Source: a virus (taxonomy: Duplodnaviria; Caudoviricetes). Taken from it: DNA of 64,000 nucleotides. Below are positions 1,431 through 27,175 of the stretch, piece by piece. A program made the position numbers and the translations under genes. The notes under the pieces are model-generated. The model was not told the origin of the DNA. It saw only the letters and a list, made by a program, of their open reading frames with translations, and ran no database searches. The stretch spans positions 32,001 to 96,000 of the IMG/VR virus record IMGVR_UViG_3300017700_000931, one strand, 5' to 3'. The stretch's first letter is position 1, and each line of letters opens with the position of its first letter.

Positions 1431-1464
1431 AAAAAAAAAGCTCGAACTTTTTGAGTTCGAGCTT
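1431..1464 (-). terminator. intrinsic terminator of attenuator 1
   Basis: AAGCTCGAAC-TCAAAAA-GTTCGAGCTT followed by a U-run. Confidence 0.85.
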
Positions 1465-1488
1465 GAATATCTTTGGTATTAATCTTTA

Positions 1489-1581
1489 TTAACTTCCAAT
1501 CACATAGACATAGCTCGAACACTCTAACACCAATAGGCATAAGACTGAGTTAAGGAGCACTATGTTTACAAAATTGTTCAT
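1489..1581 (-). CDS. leader peptide 1 (MNNFVNIVLLNSVLCLLVLECSSYVYVIGS), Leu/Val/Cys-rich
   Basis: 30 codons between promoter and terminator; contains GTTCGAGCT (1512-1520), complementary to the terminator 5' strand. Confidence 0.8.
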   Translation of the reverse strand: MNNFVNIVLLNSVLCLLVLECSSYVYVIGS

Positions 1582-1596
1582 TGAAGATTTCTACGT

Positions 1597-1653
1597 TTTA
1601 TTATTAAATATATCACAAAGATACTAATGTTATTTGAATTAGCAATGATTTTT
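1597..1653 (-). promoter_or_regulatory. tRNA-cluster promoter, copy 1 of a 57-bp identical repeat
   Basis: Identical to 26496-26552; contains TATCTTTG (Bacteroidota -7 box) at 1616-1623 and an upstream TTG. Confidence 0.85.
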
Positions 1654-22014: not shown

Positions 22015-22889
22015 GAATAATAAGATTGATATACATCACTAGTTAAACCATAATCTATAATGATGATTCTATCTTGACCATCTCTTTTAACTAATCCAAA
22101 AGTACTAAGTTTTTTTAAATCACCAGCCGGAATGCCATAATTACCAATGTATTGAAATATACCATACATGAATTCATTTTCCCACATATCAGCATAAACT
22201 TCTTTATCAATATGCATTTTAAATGGTTGTTGGCCACGTCTACTATTGACATCTTCACCGTAATTATGTACCGCTGCAACAAATTGTTCAAATGAATAAC
22301 CAGTAACTCTTTTGAAATCACCCTTATTAACTTTTCTAGCTAATTCCATTTCAATCCACAAATCATTTTGGTCATATTCAAATACACGAGCAACAATATC
22401 TTCCAAATCGGAATAATTGCTATAACTAGCTTCAACTTCATTTTGGGCTAACCCTTTTTTATTCTTGGCTAATTTAAGTACCTTTTCATCATCTACTTTA
22501 AAAACAATTCTGGAACTACCGGATGAGATTCTTTGTAAATTTTGTTGACAATACTTGATTCTTTGGTTGAATGATTTTAATGTTTTGAATTCATCAATAT
22601 TAAAATTTGATGGGTACTCTTCATCAACCATCATATTTTCTATGATATTAAAGGTTAATGACTCAGTATTTTGTGTTTCTTCGAGTTTTTTAATGATTCT
22701 CATTTTTAGAGCTGGTTTACCATTAATATGTAAGTCACCCTTATCTTCATCCCAATCAATATCCTTAACAACAACTTTTTTGTTTTTGAATTTACCCATT
22801 AGAATTGTATCACCAACTTCAATTGGTAACTCAATTACTTCCGATAACTTTTGTTTTAGTATTTTTTTTATGATGTCCTTCATAATCAT
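22011..22889 (-). CDS. hypothetical protein with kinase-like C-terminal region
   Basis: GSSRIVF..VLKLAK..EME..IIDYGL. Confidence 0.55.
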   Translation of the reverse strand: MIMKDIIKKILKQKLSEVIELPIEVGDTILMGKFKNKKVVVKDIDWDEDKGDLHINGKPALKMRIIKKLEETQNTESLTFNIIENMMVDEEYPSNFNIDEFKTLKSFNQRIKYCQQNLQRISSGSSRIVFKVDDEKVLKLAKNKKGLAQNEVEASYSNYSDLEDIVARVFEYDQNDLWIEMELARKVNKGDFKRVTGYSFEQFVAAVHNYGEDVNSRRGQQPFKMHIDKEVYADMWENEFMYGIFQYIGNYGIPAGDLKKLSTFGLVKRDGQDRIIIIDYGLTSDVYQSYYS

Positions 22890-22932
22890 AAATATTTGCT
22901 AGTTATGAAAAGACGTATTGGTAATTTTATTG

Positions 22933-23019
22933 CGGAAGAAGTAGGTCTCGAACCCAATGCGATTTTCACGCACCAATGGATTAGCAATCCACGCTCACAC
23001 CCCGATGAGTCCATCTTCC
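22933..23019 (-). tRNA. tRNA-Ser(GCU)
   Basis: GTGGA-TTGCTAA-TCCAT; long variable arm; G73. Confidence 0.85.
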
Positions 23020-23081
23020 ATTTATAACCACTATTATAATAGGTGGTTAGTCTTTTTATGACTAACCGAATATTTATTAGT

Positions 23082-23489
23082 ATGGAAACTAAAATATGCC
23101 CTACTTGTAATATCGATAAATCAATCGATGAATACTATTCACAAAATGATAGACCAAATGGTCAATCGTCTTGTAAAAAATGTTTTAATATTTATTGTAG
23201 TGAACGATGGATAAAGACTAAAATTAAAGCGATAGAATATAAAGGTTCTAAATGTCTTGATTGTACCCATTCATATCCTAATCAACCTTATGTTATTTTT
23301 GATTTTCACCATAGAGACCCATCAAAAAAAGATGCTGATTGGAACAAATTAAAAAAACGTTCTTGGAATAAGATTACTCAAGAACTTGATAAATGTGATT
23401 TACTTTGTTCAAATTGCCACCGTATTAGGCATCACAATATTAAATTAACAGTACCCCTATCAGGACTCGAACCTGAACTAAATGCTTAG
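23082..23489 (+). mobile_element. HNH homing endonuclease inserted in the tRNA array
   Basis: Zn CxxC pairs, FDFHHRDP..CDLLCSNCHRIRH; opposite strand; 3' end overlaps tRNA-Arg antisense. Confidence 0.85.
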
Positions 23490-23523
23490 AAGGCATTTGT
23501 GCTATCCATTACACCATAGAGGC
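23452..23523 (-). tRNA. tRNA-Arg(UCU)
   Basis: AATGC-CTTCTAA-GCATT. Confidence 0.9.
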
Positions 23524-23530
23524 AAATTTG

Positions 23531-23602
23531 TGACCCCGACAGGATTCGAACCTGTGACCGTCGGTTTAGAAAACCGATGTTCTTCCGCTGAACTACGGGG
23601 CC
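23531..23602 (-). tRNA. tRNA-Arg(UCU)
   Basis: TCGGT-TTTCTAA-ACCGA. Confidence 0.85.
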
Positions 23603-23612
23603 AATAATTTTG

Positions 23613-23685
23613 TAGTTCCCAAGAGATTCGAACTCTTACTTCAACGTTCGTAGCGTTGGGTGCTATCCAGTTACACCAAGGAACC
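23613..23685 (-). tRNA. tRNA-Arg(ACG)
   Basis: CAACG-CTACGAA-CGTTG. Confidence 0.9.
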
Positions 23686-23695
23686 ATTTATTTGG

Positions 23696-23772
23696 TACAG
23701 ATGATAGGATTCGAACCTACATTGCGCTCCGTTACAGCTTCTAGTTTCGAAGACTAGGCTGGCTACATCTGT
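23696..23772 (-). tRNA. D-armless tRNA-Arg(UCG)-like
   Basis: Acceptor ACAGATG/CATCTGT, CTAGT-CTTCGAA-ACTAG, canonical T arm, no D arm. Confidence 0.65.
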
Positions 23773-23773
23773 A

Positions 23774-24007
23774 TTAAAATATCATTCTTTTCCTCACAAT
23801 TAAATCATGGTCATTATATGATTTAAAATCCCATCTAATTTTATCCACTTTTTGACCTTTTTCTAACCTCATTCCTTTTATTTTATTATTCTCACAAACA
23901 CTACCAATAAAATAACCAAACTTTCTAAGTATTGGATTGATGAGGACCTTTAACAAAGACCTATGATTAACAATTTTGTTATCTTTATAAAGTATTCCCA
24001 ATTTCAT
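23774..24007 (-). CDS. hypothetical protein inside tRNA cluster
   Basis: 77-aa ORF filling gap. Confidence 0.6.
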   Translation of the reverse strand: MKLGILYKDNKIVNHRSLLKVLINPILRKFGYFIGSVCENNKIKGMRLEKGQKVDKIRWDFKSYNDHDLIVRKRMIF

Positions 24008-24008
24008 G

Positions 24009-24080
24009 TGACTCCGACAGGAATCGAACCTGTATCAAAAGTTTAGGAAACTTCTATTCTATCCGTTGAACTACGGAGCC
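24009..24080 (-). tRNA. tRNA-Arg(CCU)
   Basis: GAAGT-TTCCTAA-ACTTT. Confidence 0.9.
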
Positions 24081-24118
24081 ATTATCATTAATAATAAATA
24101 CTCTATAAAAATCAAGAG

Positions 24119-24190
24119 TAGCGATATACAGAATCGAACTGTAATTTCAAGGATATGAGCCGAGTGTAATAACCACTATACGATATCGCC
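24119..24190 (-). tRNA. tRNA-Met(CAU), elongator-type (weak anticodon stem)
   Basis: CTCGG-CTCATAT-CCTTG. Confidence 0.7.
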
Positions 24191-24292
24191 ATGTAAAAGT
24201 AATTTAATTATTGGGAGGTGCCCGACTTCTCCTTTTTGTATGGGTCTTTGTCAAATGAGCCAAATTTCAAACTCAACAATAAATTACTTTTG

Positions 24293-24380
24293 CTACTGGG
24301 GTGGGATTCGAACCCACGGTGGAGAATTAACTCGTCAGATTAACAGTCTGATGCATTCGGCCAACTATGCGAACCCAGTA
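24293..24380 (-). tRNA. tRNA-Asn(GUU) with long variable arm
   Basis: TCAGA-CTGTTAA-TCTGA; G73; variable hairpin GAG-TTAATT-CTC. Confidence 0.85.
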
Positions 24381-24390
24381 ATAAATATTG

Positions 24391-24463
24391 CTCTCCTACT
24401 TGGATTCGAACCAAGGACCCTTCGCTTAACAGGCGAACGCTCTAACCGCTGAGCTATAGAAGA
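24391..24463 (-). tRNA. tRNA-Asn(GUU)
   Basis: TTCGC-CTGTTAA-GCGAA; G73. Confidence 0.95.
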
Positions 24464-24544
24464 ATGTAAAATGGAGCTGAGATATTGGATTAATCGGTTT
24501 AATCCTACACCCACTTATTCAAAATATTCGTGGACTCCATTTTG

Positions 24545-24618
24545 TGGGCCTTGTTGGATTCGAACCAACCACCTACTGATTATGAGTCAGTTGCTCTAAC
24601 CGAATGAGCTAAAGGCCC
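24545..24618 (-). tRNA. tRNA-Ile2(CAU), lysidine type
   Basis: ACTGA-CTCATAA-TCAGT; GGGCCTT acceptor and D arm like ileX. Confidence 0.8.
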
Positions 24619-24623
24619 AATTT

Positions 24624-24710
24624 AAGAGTGGAGGATTCGAACCTCCGCAGGGTGCTACCCGTCCCACGACCTTCCTTTGGAATCGAACCAAACTTCAACC
24701 ATTGACTCTT
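24624..24710 (-). ncRNA. tRNA-like RNA with two T-arms
   Basis: TTTGG-TTCGATT-CCAAA and GGAGG-TTCGAAT-CCTCC within AAGAGT/ACTCTT closing stem. Confidence 0.55.
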
Positions 24711-24712
24711 AG

Positions 24713-24789
24713 TACTGACGATGGGATTCGAACCCACTTGTAACCTATTACCCTTTCAACAAGATATAAGCTTGAGGGGATACATCAGC
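24713..24789 (-). tRNA. D-armless tRNA-Ile(UAU)-like
   Basis: Acceptor GCTGATG/CGTCAGT, CAAG-CTTATAT-CTTG, canonical T arm, no D arm. Confidence 0.6.
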
Positions 24790-24919
24790 ATTTGTAGTTT
24801 TATGCCCTAGAGAAACTACAACTCCGTCTCATTTCCGGCTAACGTCTGGTACCATCTTTTAGCCTTATAATCGATACCACATAGTGTGCATGCAAGCAGA
24901 GGCATATGGTGACTTCGAG

Positions 24920-25003
24920 TTGTGTCGGTGGGAGTTGAACCCACTTTGAGGATATACCTCCCAGCTTATCAGGCTGGTGCCTAAACCGTCCGACCCCGAC
25001 ACA
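24920..25003 (-). tRNA. tRNA-Ile(GAU) with long variable arm
   Basis: CCAGC-CTGATAA-GCTGG; variable hairpin GAGG-TATAT-CCTC. Confidence 0.85.
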
Positions 25004-25064
25004 ATAATCTAATTCTAAGCTTCCGTTACCTGAACGGTCTATGAATTAGTAACAGTCTAGCTCG

Positions 25065-25136
25065 TTGTCTCGCCCAGACTCGAACTGGGAATACATCGGT
25101 ATCAGCGATGCGTGATAACCATTTCACCACGAGACA
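25065..25136 (-). tRNA. tRNA-Ile(GAU)
   Basis: CATCG-CTGATAC-CGATG. Confidence 0.85.
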
Positions 25137-25147
25137 ATTTAAATTAG

Positions 25148-25218
25148 ACGAAATGATGAGAGTCGAACTCATACCAACCCCTTCGCTGGGGCCGTTCTAG
25201 CCATTAAACTACATTTCT
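25148..25218 (-). tRNA. degenerate tRNA (anticodon ambiguous, CGA or GCG)
   Basis: Good D and T arms; irregular anticodon arm GGCCCCAGCGAAGGGGTT; A1:G72 mismatch. Confidence 0.5.
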
Positions 25219-25256
25219 ACTCTCCTTTACTAGTATTTCAGAGAGACTTGCAAGTG

Positions 25257-25328
25257 CGGACAGGGTCAGACTCGAACTGACATCCCCTCGCTTAACAGGC
25301 GAGTGTTTTACATTAGTACTACCTGTCC
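25257..25328 (-). tRNA. tRNA-Asn(GUU)
   Basis: CTCGC-CTGTTAA-GCGAG; G73. Confidence 0.85.
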
Positions 25329-25385
25329 ATAGGTAAAAGAGCCTTGCACTCTATTTGGAAGTCACATCTATGCTTCTAAGTCAAG

Positions 25386-25459
25386 GGTGACTGACGGGAA
25401 TCGAACCCGCATTAACAGGACCACAACCTGTCGTGTTAGACCATTACACTACAGTCACC
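25386..25459 (-). tRNA. tRNA-His(GUG)
   Basis: ACAGG-TTGTGGT-CCTGT; G-1:C73. Confidence 0.9.
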
Positions 25460-25469
25460 ATATATTTTG

Positions 25470-25557
25470 CGGATAGAAAGAGATTCGAACTCTTGCAACG
25501 ATTCAACGTTCTACTGCCTTTCCAAGACAGCCTCTTTAGCCACTTGAGTACCTATCC
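25470..25557 (-). tRNA. tRNA-Ser(GGA)
   Basis: CTGTC-TTGGAAA-GGCAG; long variable arm. Confidence 0.9.
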
Positions 25558-25563
25558 ATTTTG

Positions 25564-25645
25564 CGGAAGACAAAGTAATCGAAACCTGTACGATGTACGT
25601 ACCCCACGGGTTCAAGCCGTGTTTGCCACCTTGACGGTGCCTTCC
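25564..25645 (-). tRNA. tRNA-Ser(UGA), weak T stem
   Basis: CACGG-CTTGAAC-CCGTG; G73. Confidence 0.75.
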
Positions 25646-25652
25646 ATTTTTG

Positions 25653-25739
25653 CGGAGAGGGTGGGACTCGAACCCACACACCTCTAGGGCCTACGGTTTT
25701 CAAGACCGTTGCAGTTAGGCCAACTCTGCTTACCTCTCC
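25653..25739 (-). tRNA. tRNA-Ser(UGA)
   Basis: ACGGT-CTTGAAA-ACCGT; long variable arm. Confidence 0.9.
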
Positions 25740-25741
25740 AG

Positions 25742-25829
25742 TAGACATGTATGAGATTCGAACTCATGGTCCCTACACGGGACACCTGTTTCACACAGGC
25801 CGCTTTAAACCACTCAGCCAACATTATCT
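25742..25829 (-). tRNA. atypical tRNA-Ser(UGA)-like, G33, distorted 8-bp acceptor stem
   Basis: GCCTG-TGTGAAA-CAGGT; variable arm GTCCC-GTGTA-GGGAC; A73. Confidence 0.55.
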
Positions 25830-25830
25830 G

Positions 25831-25920
25831 CACACCCGTAGGGATTCGAACCCTCAGCCAATCGTAAGACTTCCGTAGAAACTGATTTGGAGCCAGCTGG
25901 TCACGCCAATGAGCGGGTGT
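25831..25920 (-). tRNA. tRNA-Trp(CCA) with 25-nt variable region
   Basis: GCTGG-CTCCAAA-TCAGT; G73; short D arm. Confidence 0.7.
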
Positions 25921-25930
25921 GTATAAATTG

Positions 25931-26009
25931 CACGGATGGAAGGAATCGAACCCTCTAGACTTTCGTCACGGTTTTGGAGACCGCTGTCCCACCATAGGAC
26001 ATCACCCGT
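25931..26009 (-). tRNA. tRNA-Trp(CCA) with variable-arm hairpin
   Basis: GCGGT-CTCCAAA-ACCGT; GAC-GAAA-GTC; G73. Confidence 0.85.
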
Positions 26010-26065
26010 GTATTACCAATACGTCAAAGAACTATTGAATCTACATTTAGATTCACATTTTGTTG

Positions 26066-26137
26066 GGTGTAAGGACGGTACCGACCCGTCTTCTCTAGGT
26101 TCACAGCCTAGCACTTCACCTTAAAGCTTCAAACACC
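26066..26137 (-). tRNA. tRNA-His(GUG), atypical T-loop
   Basis: CTAGG-CTGTGAA-CCTAG; G-1:C73; T-loop GTCGGTA. Confidence 0.7.
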
Positions 26138-26308
26138 ATTTATCTTAACAAATATAATCATGTTTCCATGTTCCTTTTTAAAAACCAGCTCACCATGATA
26201 TCCGGTGGCAATAGCTATTATTGTATATTTGTCAATTATCTTATCGAAATTTTTTTTAAAGTATTCCAACTTTTCACTCCCTAACTTTCTCACTAAATCC
26301 TCTTCCAT
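26129..26308 (-). CDS. hypothetical protein, first gene after attenuator 2
   Basis: ATG at 26308 (MEEDLVRK...). Confidence 0.55.
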   Translation of the reverse strand: MEEDLVRKLGSEKLEYFKKNFDKIIDKYTIIAIATGYHGELVFKKEHGNMIIFVKINGV

Positions 26309-26327
26309 AACCAAAAATTTTAAGCAC

Positions 26328-26356
26328 AAAAAAAGCTCGACCTTGTGAGTCGAGCT
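26328..26356 (-). terminator. intrinsic terminator of attenuator 2
   Basis: AGCTCGAC-TCACAAG-GTCGAGCT followed by U-run. Confidence 0.85.
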
Positions 26357-26384
26357 AAATCCTTATTACCTATATCTTGTTACA

Positions 26385-26477
26385 TTATGATACTTTGGTT
26401 ATGGACATACCCGACTCGGTTGAAGAATTACGTCTCCAATTACTAATCGAAATCATATGTATGTGCATTGTCATCAT
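26385..26477 (-). CDS. leader peptide 2 (MMTMHIHMISISNWRRNSSTESGMSITKVS)
   Basis: 30 codons; 18 of first 19 are Met/His/Ile/Ser/Asn/Trp/Arg; GAGTCGGGT (26409-26417) pairs with terminator 5' strand. Confidence 0.85.
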   Translation of the reverse strand: MMTMHIHMISISNWRRNSSTESGMSITKVS

Positions 26478-26495
26478 TTTGTAAAAATTGTTTTG

Positions 26496-26552
26496 TTTAT
26501 TATTAAATATATCACAAAGATACTAATGTTATTTGAATTAGCAATGATTTTT
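26496..26552 (-). promoter_or_regulatory. tRNA-cluster promoter, copy 2 of a 57-bp identical repeat
   Basis: Identical to 1597-1653; TATCTTTG at 26515-26522. Confidence 0.85.
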
Positions 26553-26557
26553 GTGAA

Positions 26558-27175
26558 TTATTTTTTCTTTTTTTTAGTTTTCCTTGATTTTACTGGTGTT
26601 TTGACAGATGCGGCGATAGAATCTTTTTTTGTCATTTCAACATAATTGAATGGTTTTTCCACTCCTCCGCTAAAATGTGCTGCCGCAGATAATGCAATTT
26701 CTAACTTTTCGTATGGCTTCATTTTAACATTTTGAAGAGCATACATGGCACCATCTGCTATTTCTTCACCACACCCAACTGATATAAAATTATCTTTAGT
26801 CATTGCTACTTGATAATCTTCATCAATCATATAAAGTTCACCTTTATATCCGACTAAGAAGGTCCCACCTTTATCATCACCATCTTTAAATCTTTGACTA
26901 TACCCACCTTTTCTAAAACACTCCTTGACTGAGTCAATAAATGTTGTTATCATGAAATCAAAATCAGATTGACCTTTCTTTTGTTTTGGTGCTTTATAAT
27001 GTGAAGACATTAATAATTGTCCCATCCTAAAACTTGATGTAAAACCCATTATAAATGGTCCTGTTTTGAAAACCTTAGTATCTCGTCTAATATGGATAGA
27101 TAATCCGCCAACACCAGCACTATCACCACCAATTATAACTTTATCCTGTTGAATTAATCCTACTATACATGTCAT
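26558..27175 (-). CDS. HslV/proteasome-like Ntn peptidase
   Basis: MTCIVG..GGDS N-terminal Thr nucleophile; K in TKVF; SVGCG. Confidence 0.75.
   Translation of the reverse strand: MTCIVGLIQQDKVIIGGDSAGVGGLSIHIRRDTKVFKTGPFIMGFTSSFRMGQLLMSSHYKAPKQKKGQSDFDFMITTFIDSVKECFRKGGYSQRFKDGDDKGGTFLVGYKGELYMIDEDYQVAMTKDNFISVGCGEEIADGAMYALQNVKMKPYEKLEIALSAAAHFSGGVEKPFNYVEMTKKDSIAASVKTPVKSRKTKKKKK

What the first reader, a model, noticed from the sequence alone, without database searches (positions are those of the whole stretch)
26328..26552. Leader-peptide attenuator for the His/Trp/Ser/Asn/Ile/Met/Arg tRNA cluster
The leader is MMTMHIHMISISNWRRNSSTESGMSITKVS (26477-26385). Eighteen of the first 19 codons belong to exactly the seven amino acids whose tRNAs lie downstream (22933-26137), and all seven are represented. 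It includes ATA, AGA, CGT, TGG, AGT, TCA and TCT. GAGTCGGGT at codons 21-23 pairs over 9 bp with GCTCGACTC of the terminator. The geometry is the same as leader 1 with a different, matched composition, and the two instances cross-validate each other. It is a multiplexed seven-amino-acid sensor.
Basis: partly seen in the sequence, partly recalled or inferred. Interest (0 to 1): 0.97.

Follow-up and report, generated by a model that had tools for sequence, protein, structure and literature searches.

The report
Leader-peptide switch gating phage tRNA genes
A 30-codon mini-gene, written almost entirely in the seven amino acids whose tRNA genes lie just downstream and followed by a switchable transcription stop, probably lets a giant phage make those tRNAs only when ribosomes read these codons slowly; I found no description of such control for tRNA genes.

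Summary
Window 26328-26544 (- strand) holds a Bacteroidota-type promoter, a 30-codon ORF, a 9-bp antiterminator, a 9-bp terminator with a U7 run, a conserved 59-aa ORF, and then about 24 tRNA genes for only His, Trp, Ser, Asn, Ile, Met and Arg.

Seventeen of codons 2-20 belong to those seven amino acids (p 3e-6 to 1e-7). The same cassette heads all four tRNA clusters of this 362-kb phage, and each leader matches its own cluster.

A composition-blind scan of related uncultured jumbo phages found 50 such modules.
- The cluster-C core NIHMISISNWRRNS is conserved.
- Every substitution in codons 5-18 stays inside the seven-residue set, including Ser box switches.
- The antiterminator strand co-varies with at least 8 different terminator stems, always near nt 60-73 of the ORF.
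- Genomes with re-partitioned clusters have leaders re-written to match.

No experiment exists, and I found no paper describing it. The scan had already flagged the three sister attenuators elsewhere in this same genome.

I class it as a new variant of a known kind, of high interest.

The parts
26515..26544 (-). Promoter: TTG (26544-26542), 19-nt spacer, -7 box TATCTTTG (26522-26515); predicted start near 26510
   Evidence: Matches the Bacteroidota sigma-A consensus TTG-N19-TAnnTTTG (PMC9723704). It is 49/49 nt identical to the promoter of leader 1. 44 of 50 related modules have a TAnnTTTG box within 90 nt upstream of the leader ATG.
26503..26510 (-). ATATTTAA motif at or just after the predicted start site
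   Evidence: ATATTTA[AT] lies within 70 nt upstream of the ATG in 36 of 50 modules, against about 1.5% expected. Its role is unknown.
26385..26477 (-). Leader ORF, 30 codons plus TAA; no Shine-Dalgarno; A at -1 to -3 and at -11 and -12
   Evidence: An ORF of 24-36 codons is conserved in 50 modules. Genes of this phage lack SD and have A at -3 and -11..-13.
26421..26474 (-). Sensor codons 2-19: 17 of 18 code for M, H, I, S, N, W or R, with codons cognate to 11 of the 12 anticodon species ARAGORN finds in the cluster
26409..26417 (-). Region 2: 5' strand of the antiterminator (GAGUCGGGU, codons 21-23)
   Evidence: The equivalent strand starts at a median of nt 62 (IQR 60-65) in 49 modules.
26357..26408 (-). 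Stretch enclosed by the antiterminator: codons 24-30, the stop codon and a 28-nt spacer
   Evidence: domain -22.3 kcal/mol, z -4.7. The distance from stop to terminator stem is conserved at 24-27 nt (IQR).
26347..26356 (-). Region 3: terminator 5' arm (26356-26348), shared with the antiterminator (26355-26347)
26328..26342 (-). Region 4: terminator 3' arm (26342-26334) and U7 run (26334-26328)
26129..26308 (-). Conserved 59-aa ORF, the first gene behind the attenuator; function unknown
   Evidence: tblastn gives 40-73% identity at the same position in about 30 related loci. No Pfam or PHROG match.
22932..26136 (-). Regulated tRNA cluster, about 24 genes: His, Trp x2, Ser x4, His, Asn, Arg, Ile x2, Ile(UAU)-like, Met, Asn x2, Met, Arg x5 and Ser
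1431..1645 (-).

Best explanation
This is a ribosome-mediated (leader-peptide) transcription attenuator that gates a phage tRNA operon. Transcription starts at a host-type promoter. A ribosome then translates the 30-codon leader, whose codons 2 to about 16 are cognate to the tRNAs encoded downstream. If any of these codons is read slowly because its charged tRNA is scarce, the ribosome lags behind. Region 2 (codons 21-23) stays free and pairs with the terminator's 5' arm as soon as that arm is made. No terminator hairpin forms, and RNA polymerase runs on into the 59-aa ORF and the tRNA genes. If decoding is fast, the ribosome is on region 2, or inside the loop that the antiterminator would have to close (codons 24 to stop), while regions 3 and 4 are transcribed. 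The terminator hairpin and U7 run then stop transcription at 26334-26328. The result is negative feedback on the supply of seven amino acids' tRNAs, with any one shortage enough to open the switch. Shown by sequence: the parts, their conservation, the set-restricted substitutions and the covariation. Inferred: translation of the ORF, termination in vivo, the timing of ribosome against polymerase, and the predicted default of read-through without translation.
For: (1) The anatomy is confirmed. (2) Composition: 17 of 19 codons are in the set, and the leader is the top of 948 null ORFs. (3) All four tRNA clusters of the genome carry the same cassette. The leader-by-cluster count matrix is diagonal at 17, 11, 11 and 14 against off-diagonal values of 0-6. 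(4) A composition-blind pipeline finds 50 modules in relatives. Amino acids with a tRNA in the cluster are missing from the leader in only 7 of 247 cases. The true pairing is the best permutation in 12 of 12 genomes. (5) In cluster-C leaders every amino-acid state at codons 5-18 stays within the seven-residue set, for example I/S/H/M/N at codon 9. Ser switches between TCG, AGT, AGC and TCT, and Arg16 between CGT and CGC. (6) Re-partitioned clusters have matching leaders. In G013 one leader has 15 codons of its own-specific residues and 0 of the other's, and the second has 13 against 2. The merged Cys/Val/Leu/Asp/Phe/Ala cluster of G004 has a leader mixing those residues. (7) Antiterminator covariation: matched duplexes average -12.7 kcal/mol against -8.5 for mismatched pairs (p 2e-19), across at least 8 different stem sequences, always near nt 60-73. 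(8) Modelling a ribosome at codon 14 gives the antiterminator; at codon 18 or at the stop it gives the terminator. (9) Leader-peptide attenuation is reported for flavobacterial amino-acid operons (PMC9723704).
Against: There are no experimental data. No conserved 1:2 anti-antiterminator helix was found, so the timing model is inferred rather than copied from trp. The sister leader 4 has a weaker antiterminator with one A-C mismatch, which MFE folding does not predict. Some related clusters lack a leader: G003 B2, G004 A and G011. Thr codons 3 and 20 are unmatched and Arg-CCU is not sampled. The cross-genome statistics are not corrected for shared descent.
Confidence: 0.85

Rival explanations
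1. The hardware is the same and the leader is translated, but the output is not transcription termination. Ribosome position on the leader would instead control processing or stability of the precursor, for example access of RNases to the 5' end of the tRNA precursor. The hairpin with its U-run would be a protective or processing structure.
For: In clusters A, B1 and B2 the first tRNA starts only 10-25 nt after the U-run, so the hairpin lies close to an RNase P site. No termination data exist.
Against: The hairpin has the full form of an intrinsic terminator: a GC-rich 9-bp stem followed directly by U7. The co-varying competitor for its 5' arm is what a terminator/antiterminator switch needs. 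In cluster C a 59-aa ORF and about 190 nt separate the hairpin from the first tRNA.
Confidence: 0.06
2. It is an untranslated cis-acting RNA element. The open frame and its composition would be by-products of conserved RNA sequence or structure, for example direct codon-like contacts with tRNAs as in T-box leaders.
For: Nucleotide conservation of the cluster-C core is high. Translation has not been shown.
Against: Four unrelated leader sequences all keep an ATG, a frame of 24-36 codons and a stop at a fixed distance. Substitutions respect amino-acid set membership across codon boxes, such as TCG to AGT, which makes sense only in frame. There is no T-box or other Rfam match. The start context matches that of the phage's genes.
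Confidence: 0.04
3. These are ordinary small genes or chance ORFs followed by ordinary terminators, and the match to the tRNA clusters is coincidence.
For: AT-rich genomes hold many small ORFs. Ile, Asn and Ser are common residues here.
Against: Searches put the chance of the composition at 1e-3 to 1e-7 per leader. It recurs in four families and in re-partitioned genomes.
Confidence: 0.01

Closest known systems
Multivalent leader-peptide attenuators of enterobacterial amino-acid operons (thrL: Thr+Ile; ilvL of ilvGMEDA: Ile+Leu+Val; also trpL, hisL, pheL, leuL). From established knowledge.
   Same: A short translated leader is rich in the relevant codons. An intrinsic terminator competes with an antiterminator, and the position of the lead ribosome decides between them. 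More than one amino acid is sensed by one leader.
   Different: The regulated genes here are tRNA genes, not biosynthetic enzymes, so the sensor reads the product class it controls. Seven amino acids are sensed here, and 13 in relative G013, instead of one to three. No conserved 1:2 hairpin was found. Region 2 lies inside the ORF, about 22 nt before the stop. The system is viral and in a Shine-Dalgarno-less setting. There is no sequence or Rfam similarity.
pheST attenuator (pheM leader) of E. coli. From established knowledge.
   Same: Leader-peptide attenuation controls a component of the translation apparatus (Phe-tRNA synthetase) in response to decoding of its own amino acid's codons.
   Different: It regulates a protein-coding synthetase for a single amino acid, not tRNA genes.
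T-box riboswitches
   Same: These are transcription attenuators that monitor tRNA status and control translation-related genes through a terminator/antiterminator choice.
   Different: A T-box binds one uncharged tRNA directly and needs no ribosome or ORF. It has a specifier loop and a conserved T-box motif, and it regulates aaRS or amino-acid genes. No T-box match was found here, and this element has a conserved ORF.
Leader-peptide attenuation in flavobacterial amino-acid operons (PMC9723704)
   Same: It shares the probable host phylum, the promoter type and the mechanism class.
   Different: Those are host biosynthetic operons. Nothing there concerns tRNA genes or phages.

Membership tests
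Ribosome-mediated (leader-peptide) transcription attenuators | A short ORF with start and stop in the 5' leader of the regulated unit | tested here: met
   30 codons at 26477..26385. An ORF of 24-36 codons is conserved in 50 modules.
Ribosome-mediated (leader-peptide) transcription attenuators | Leader enriched in codons tied to the regulated function | tested here: met
   17 of 19 codons are in the cluster's amino-acid set. Substitutions stay within the set. Composition tracks cluster content.
Ribosome-mediated (leader-peptide) transcription attenuators | Intrinsic terminator between the leader ORF and the regulated genes | tested here: met
   A 9-bp stem with 5 GC pairs, a 5-nt loop and U7 at 26356-26328.
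Ribosome-mediated (leader-peptide) transcription attenuators | A mutually exclusive antiterminator whose upstream strand a ribosome can mask | tested here: met
   26417-26409 pairs with 26355-26347. The pairing co-varies across at least 8 stem types, p 2e-19.
Ribosome-mediated (leader-peptide) transcription attenuators | A 1:2 (anti-antiterminator or pause) hairpin, as in trp | tested here: not met
   Matched duplexes average -6.3 against -6.7 kcal/mol for mismatched ones, with no consistent position. This hairpin is a feature of the trp subtype, not of the class.
Ribosome-mediated (leader-peptide) transcription attenuators | Translation of the leader and stall-dependent read-through shown experimentally | not testable with these tools
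Curated Rfam leader families (His, Trp, Thr, Leu and others) | Covariance-model match | tested here: not met
   No leader family matched at E <= 1 in 22500-27000.
T-box riboswitch | Rfam T-box model match, which covers the specifier loop and T-box motif | tested here: not met
   No match. The element instead has a conserved ORF.

The most novel reading that the evidence does not exclude
The four attenuators together form an on-demand tRNA supply circuit. The phage reads, codon by codon, which host tRNAs are missing, whether through a codon-usage mismatch, phage-induced host RNA decay or host anticodon-nuclease defences. It then transcribes only the matching replacement set. The switch is ON by default and is shut off only by proof of fast decoding. 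This would be the first known feedback from decoding speed to tRNA gene transcription. It would also be a regulated counter-defence, and leaders in metagenomes could be read as lists of co-regulated tRNAs.
Probability: 0.3. Interest if true: 0.95.

Novelty: new variant of a known kind. Interest (0 to 1): 0.9.

Why it matters
Why phages carry tRNA genes has been debated for decades. The proposals include codon compensation, replacement of degraded host tRNAs and escape from tRNA-targeting defences (PMC10264068, PMC11555353, PMC11464382). How their expression is controlled is hardly addressed. A 2026 survey of phage tRNAs does not mention attenuators, leaders, terminators or regulation at all.

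Here the regulatory logic can be read directly from sequence. tRNA output is coupled to how fast ribosomes decode exactly those codons, which argues that these phages tune tRNA supply to demand.

The system extends leader-peptide attenuation in three ways: to RNA genes, to viruses, and to multiplexed sensing of up to 13 amino acids. It also shows evolution acting on set membership of codons rather than on a peptide sequence. Finally, it offers a compact natural sensor design for tRNA availability.

Tried and rejected
- Rfam at E <= 1 over 22500-27000 gave no known leader, T-box or riboswitch.
- A trp-like 1:2 hairpin was tested by matched against mismatched duplex energies, with no signal.
- The MAFFT alignment of 21 cluster-C leaders (A2) misaligns the variable terminators. 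I therefore did not use it for formal pair counts and relied on anchored duplex tests instead.
- An exact promoter pattern in viral contigs gave no hits.
- A single-protein search for loci with the HslV-like neighbour found nothing. The CCA-enzyme alignment worked instead.
- The phages collection holds no close relative.
- Tenacibaculum phage pT24 has four tRNAs only 117 nt after a gene, which leaves no room for a leader.
- The promoter copy at 38734-38763 heads a region of about 500 nt without an ORF, not a leader.
- In relatives, G003 cluster B2 has a ~95-aa ORF in place of a leader. I found no leader before the G004 cluster that starts with Pro, nor in G011.
- Seven literature searches found no paper on attenuators of tRNA genes.

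Full report
**What is there**

The window is bases 32001-96000 of a 362,532-bp phage record with direct terminal repeats, 32.7% G+C and 57 ARAGORN tRNA genes. The following elements lie in order on the minus strand.

- Promoter: TTG, 19 nt, then TATCTTTG (26544-26515). This is the Bacteroidota sigma-A form TTG-N19-TAnnTTTG (PMC9723704).
- 5' UTR: about 33 nt, A-rich, with no Shine-Dalgarno sequence.
- Leader ORF: 30 codons, 26477..26385.
- Terminator: a 9-bp hairpin followed by seven T (26356-26328).
- A 59-aa ORF at 26308..26129.
- tRNA genes from 26136 to 22932.

ARAGORN, Rfam and relaxed ARAGORN together give about 24 tRNA genes. All of them decode His, Trp, Ser, Asn, Ile, Met or Arg. Two are Rfam-only genes with a tiny D arm, carrying anticodons UAU and UCG.

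Genes of this phage lack SD motifs (4.8% against 8.7% in a control). They carry A at -3 and at -11 to -13. This fits a Bacteroidota host (abstract of PMC6847099). The host assignment is an inference.

Every detail checks out.
- Eighteen of the first 19 codons fall in the seven-residue set.
- The listed codons are present.
- The 9-bp pairing of 26417-26409 with 26355-26347 is real.

Seventeen of codons 2-20 are in the set, against a mean of 6.95 for 948 small ORFs of the same genome. Only the leader itself reaches 17. The binomial p is 2.7e-6, or 1.4e-7 with long-ORF residue usage. At the codon level, 11 of the 12 anticodon species ARAGORN finds in the cluster have a cognate codon in the leader; only Arg-CCU is missing.

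**The same cassette four times**

The promoter recurs exactly at 1645-1597 in the window, and with three mismatches at genome position 16232-16193. A fourth, more diverged copy lies just left of the window. Each copy is followed by an ORF of 29-31 codons, a hairpin with a T-run, and a tRNA cluster.

The four clusters split the amino acids as follows:
- P, Q, Y, T, G, K
- C, V, L, M
- F, E, Q, D, A
- H, W, S, N, R, I, M

The matrix of leader codons against cluster sets is diagonal, at 17, 11, 11 and 14, with off-diagonal values of 0-6.

I found all four before I opened the scan's earlier notes. Those notes describe the same system and report follow-ups on two sister leaders.

**Relatives**

The neighbouring CCA-adding enzyme has thousands of relatives, and the closest ones lie on uncultured contigs of up to about 359 kb. 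An alignment-based scan of IMG/VR returned 80 loci. I fetched further tRNA regions from 12 long records.

I then ran a pipeline that ignores composition. It looks for a hairpin with a T-run less than 500 nt before a tRNA, and takes the longest ATG ORF of 18-50 codons ending 0-45 nt before the stem. After removing ORFs that overlap tRNAs, 50 modules remain.

The cluster-C leader is conserved in about 25 loci with the core NIHMISISNWRRNS. At codons 5-18 every observed residue state stays inside the seven-residue set. Examples are I/S/H/M/N at codon 9 and M/R/I at codon 8. Ser moves between the TCN and AGY boxes, and Arg16 between CGT and CGC. This is selection on which tRNA is called, not on a peptide sequence.

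Across all modules, an amino acid with a tRNA in the cluster is absent from leader codons 2-20 in only 7 of 247 cases. In all 12 genomes with two or more modules, the true leader-cluster pairing scores best among all permutations. These counts are not corrected for shared descent.

**Independent rearrangements**

These rearrangements are the strongest test.

- In G013 (310 kb, CCA enzyme 51% identical) the tRNAs are split differently, into a 13-amino-acid cluster and a 10-amino-acid cluster.
  - The first leader has 19 of 19 codons in its set and covers all 13 amino acids.
  - Counting only set-specific residues, the two leaders score 15:0 and 2:13.
- In G004 a merged Cys/Val/Leu/Asp/Phe/Ala cluster is headed by a leader mixing exactly those residues.
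- In G010 the Cys/Leu cluster has no detected tRNA-Val, and its leader has only two Val codons among codons 2-20, against three to six in the other Cys/Val/Leu leaders.
- tRNA gene copy number and leader codon count correlate, with Spearman rho 0.45.

**The switch**

Terminator stems differ widely among modules, with at least 8 sequence types in the cluster-C family alone. In nearly every module, the best complement to the terminator's 5' arm lies inside the ORF. It starts at a median of nt 62 (IQR 60-65) and ends near nt 73.

Matched leader-terminator pairs average -12.7 kcal/mol, against -8.5 for mismatched pairs (p 2e-19). This is compensatory change that preserves an antiterminator.

Three folds describe the window's leader.
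- The nascent RNA that ends before the 3' arm folds into the antiterminator.
- The antiterminator domain alone reaches -22.3 kcal/mol with z = -4.7.
- The complete RNA prefers the terminator.

I modelled a ribosome as blocking the RNA up to 12 nt past the A site. With the ribosome at codon 14 the fold gives the antiterminator. At codon 18, or at the stop codon, it gives the terminator. I found no conserved 1:2 hairpin.

The stop codon lies a median of 22 nt after region 2. The terminator stem starts 24-27 nt after the stop.

From this geometry I infer three things.
- A ribosome anywhere from region 2 to the stop sits on, or inside, the loop the antiterminator must close, and so favours termination.
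- A ribosome held at codons up to about 16 leaves region 2 free.
- Without translation, the default should be read-through.

**Comparison with known systems**

The mechanism class is classical leader-peptide attenuation, closest to the multivalent thrL and ilvL leaders. pheST is the known case where attenuation controls a translation component. These comparisons rest on established knowledge.

The differences are as follows:
- The target is a set of tRNA genes.
- The degree of multiplexing is higher, at 7 to 13 amino acids.
- Only three RNA elements are involved.
- The system is viral and works without Shine-Dalgarno sequences.

No Rfam leader or T-box model matches. Seven full-text searches found no description of attenuators of tRNA genes. 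A 2026 survey of phage tRNAs contains none of the words attenuator, leader, terminator or regulation. The library searched is incomplete, so prior work cannot be excluded.

**Limits**

- Nothing here shows translation, stalling or termination in cells.
- No cultured relative was found, and no RNA data could be reached.
- One sister antiterminator is weak.
- Some related clusters have no leader, so the device is common but not obligatory.

**Verdict**

This is a new variant of a known kind of regulator. My confidence in the mechanism is about 0.85, and I rate interest at 0.9.

Noticed in passing
window 26129-26308 (-): A 59-aa ORF lies between the attenuator and the first tRNA. It is conserved at 40-73% identity at the same position in about 30 related phages. 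It has no Pfam or PHROG match. It is co-regulated with the tRNAs, and its function is unknown.
   Followed up: partly
window 24713-24789 and 23696-23772 (-): Two tRNA-like genes are seen only by Rfam. Both have a very short D arm and a long variable arm, with anticodons UAU (Ile, reads AUA) and UCG (Arg). Several other tRNAs for Asn, Ile, Met, Cys and Thr are 85-89 nt long, which is unusual for these amino acids.
   Followed up: partly
window 38200-38763 (-): A promoter 68-74% identical to the leader promoters is followed by about 500 nt without a convincing ORF, ending at tRNA-Met 38116-38188. The only Rfam match is a borderline 95-nt tRNA-like hit at 38417-38511. This is a candidate unknown RNA gene.
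   Followed up: partly
window 41052-41498 (-): A phage-encoded tmRNA (89.7 bits) sits directly behind another promoter of the same family.
   Followed up: no
window 26503-26510 and the equivalent places in 36 of 50 related modules: The motif ATATTTA[AT] lies 6-49 nt upstream of the leader start codons, against about 1.5% expected by chance. It may be a start-site element, a second promoter or a translation element.
   Followed up: partly
window 23043-23489 (+): A 148-aa Cys/His-rich ORF lies on the opposite strand inside the tRNA cluster. It looks like an HNH-type homing endonuclease, but Pfam gave no match.
   Followed up: no
L087:10655-10940 (G003): In one relative, the Phe/Glu/Asp/Ala cluster is preceded by a promoter and a ~95-aa ORF instead of a leader and terminator. 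By eye the ORF resembles an antibiotic-biosynthesis-monooxygenase fold; I ran no family search on it.
   Followed up: no
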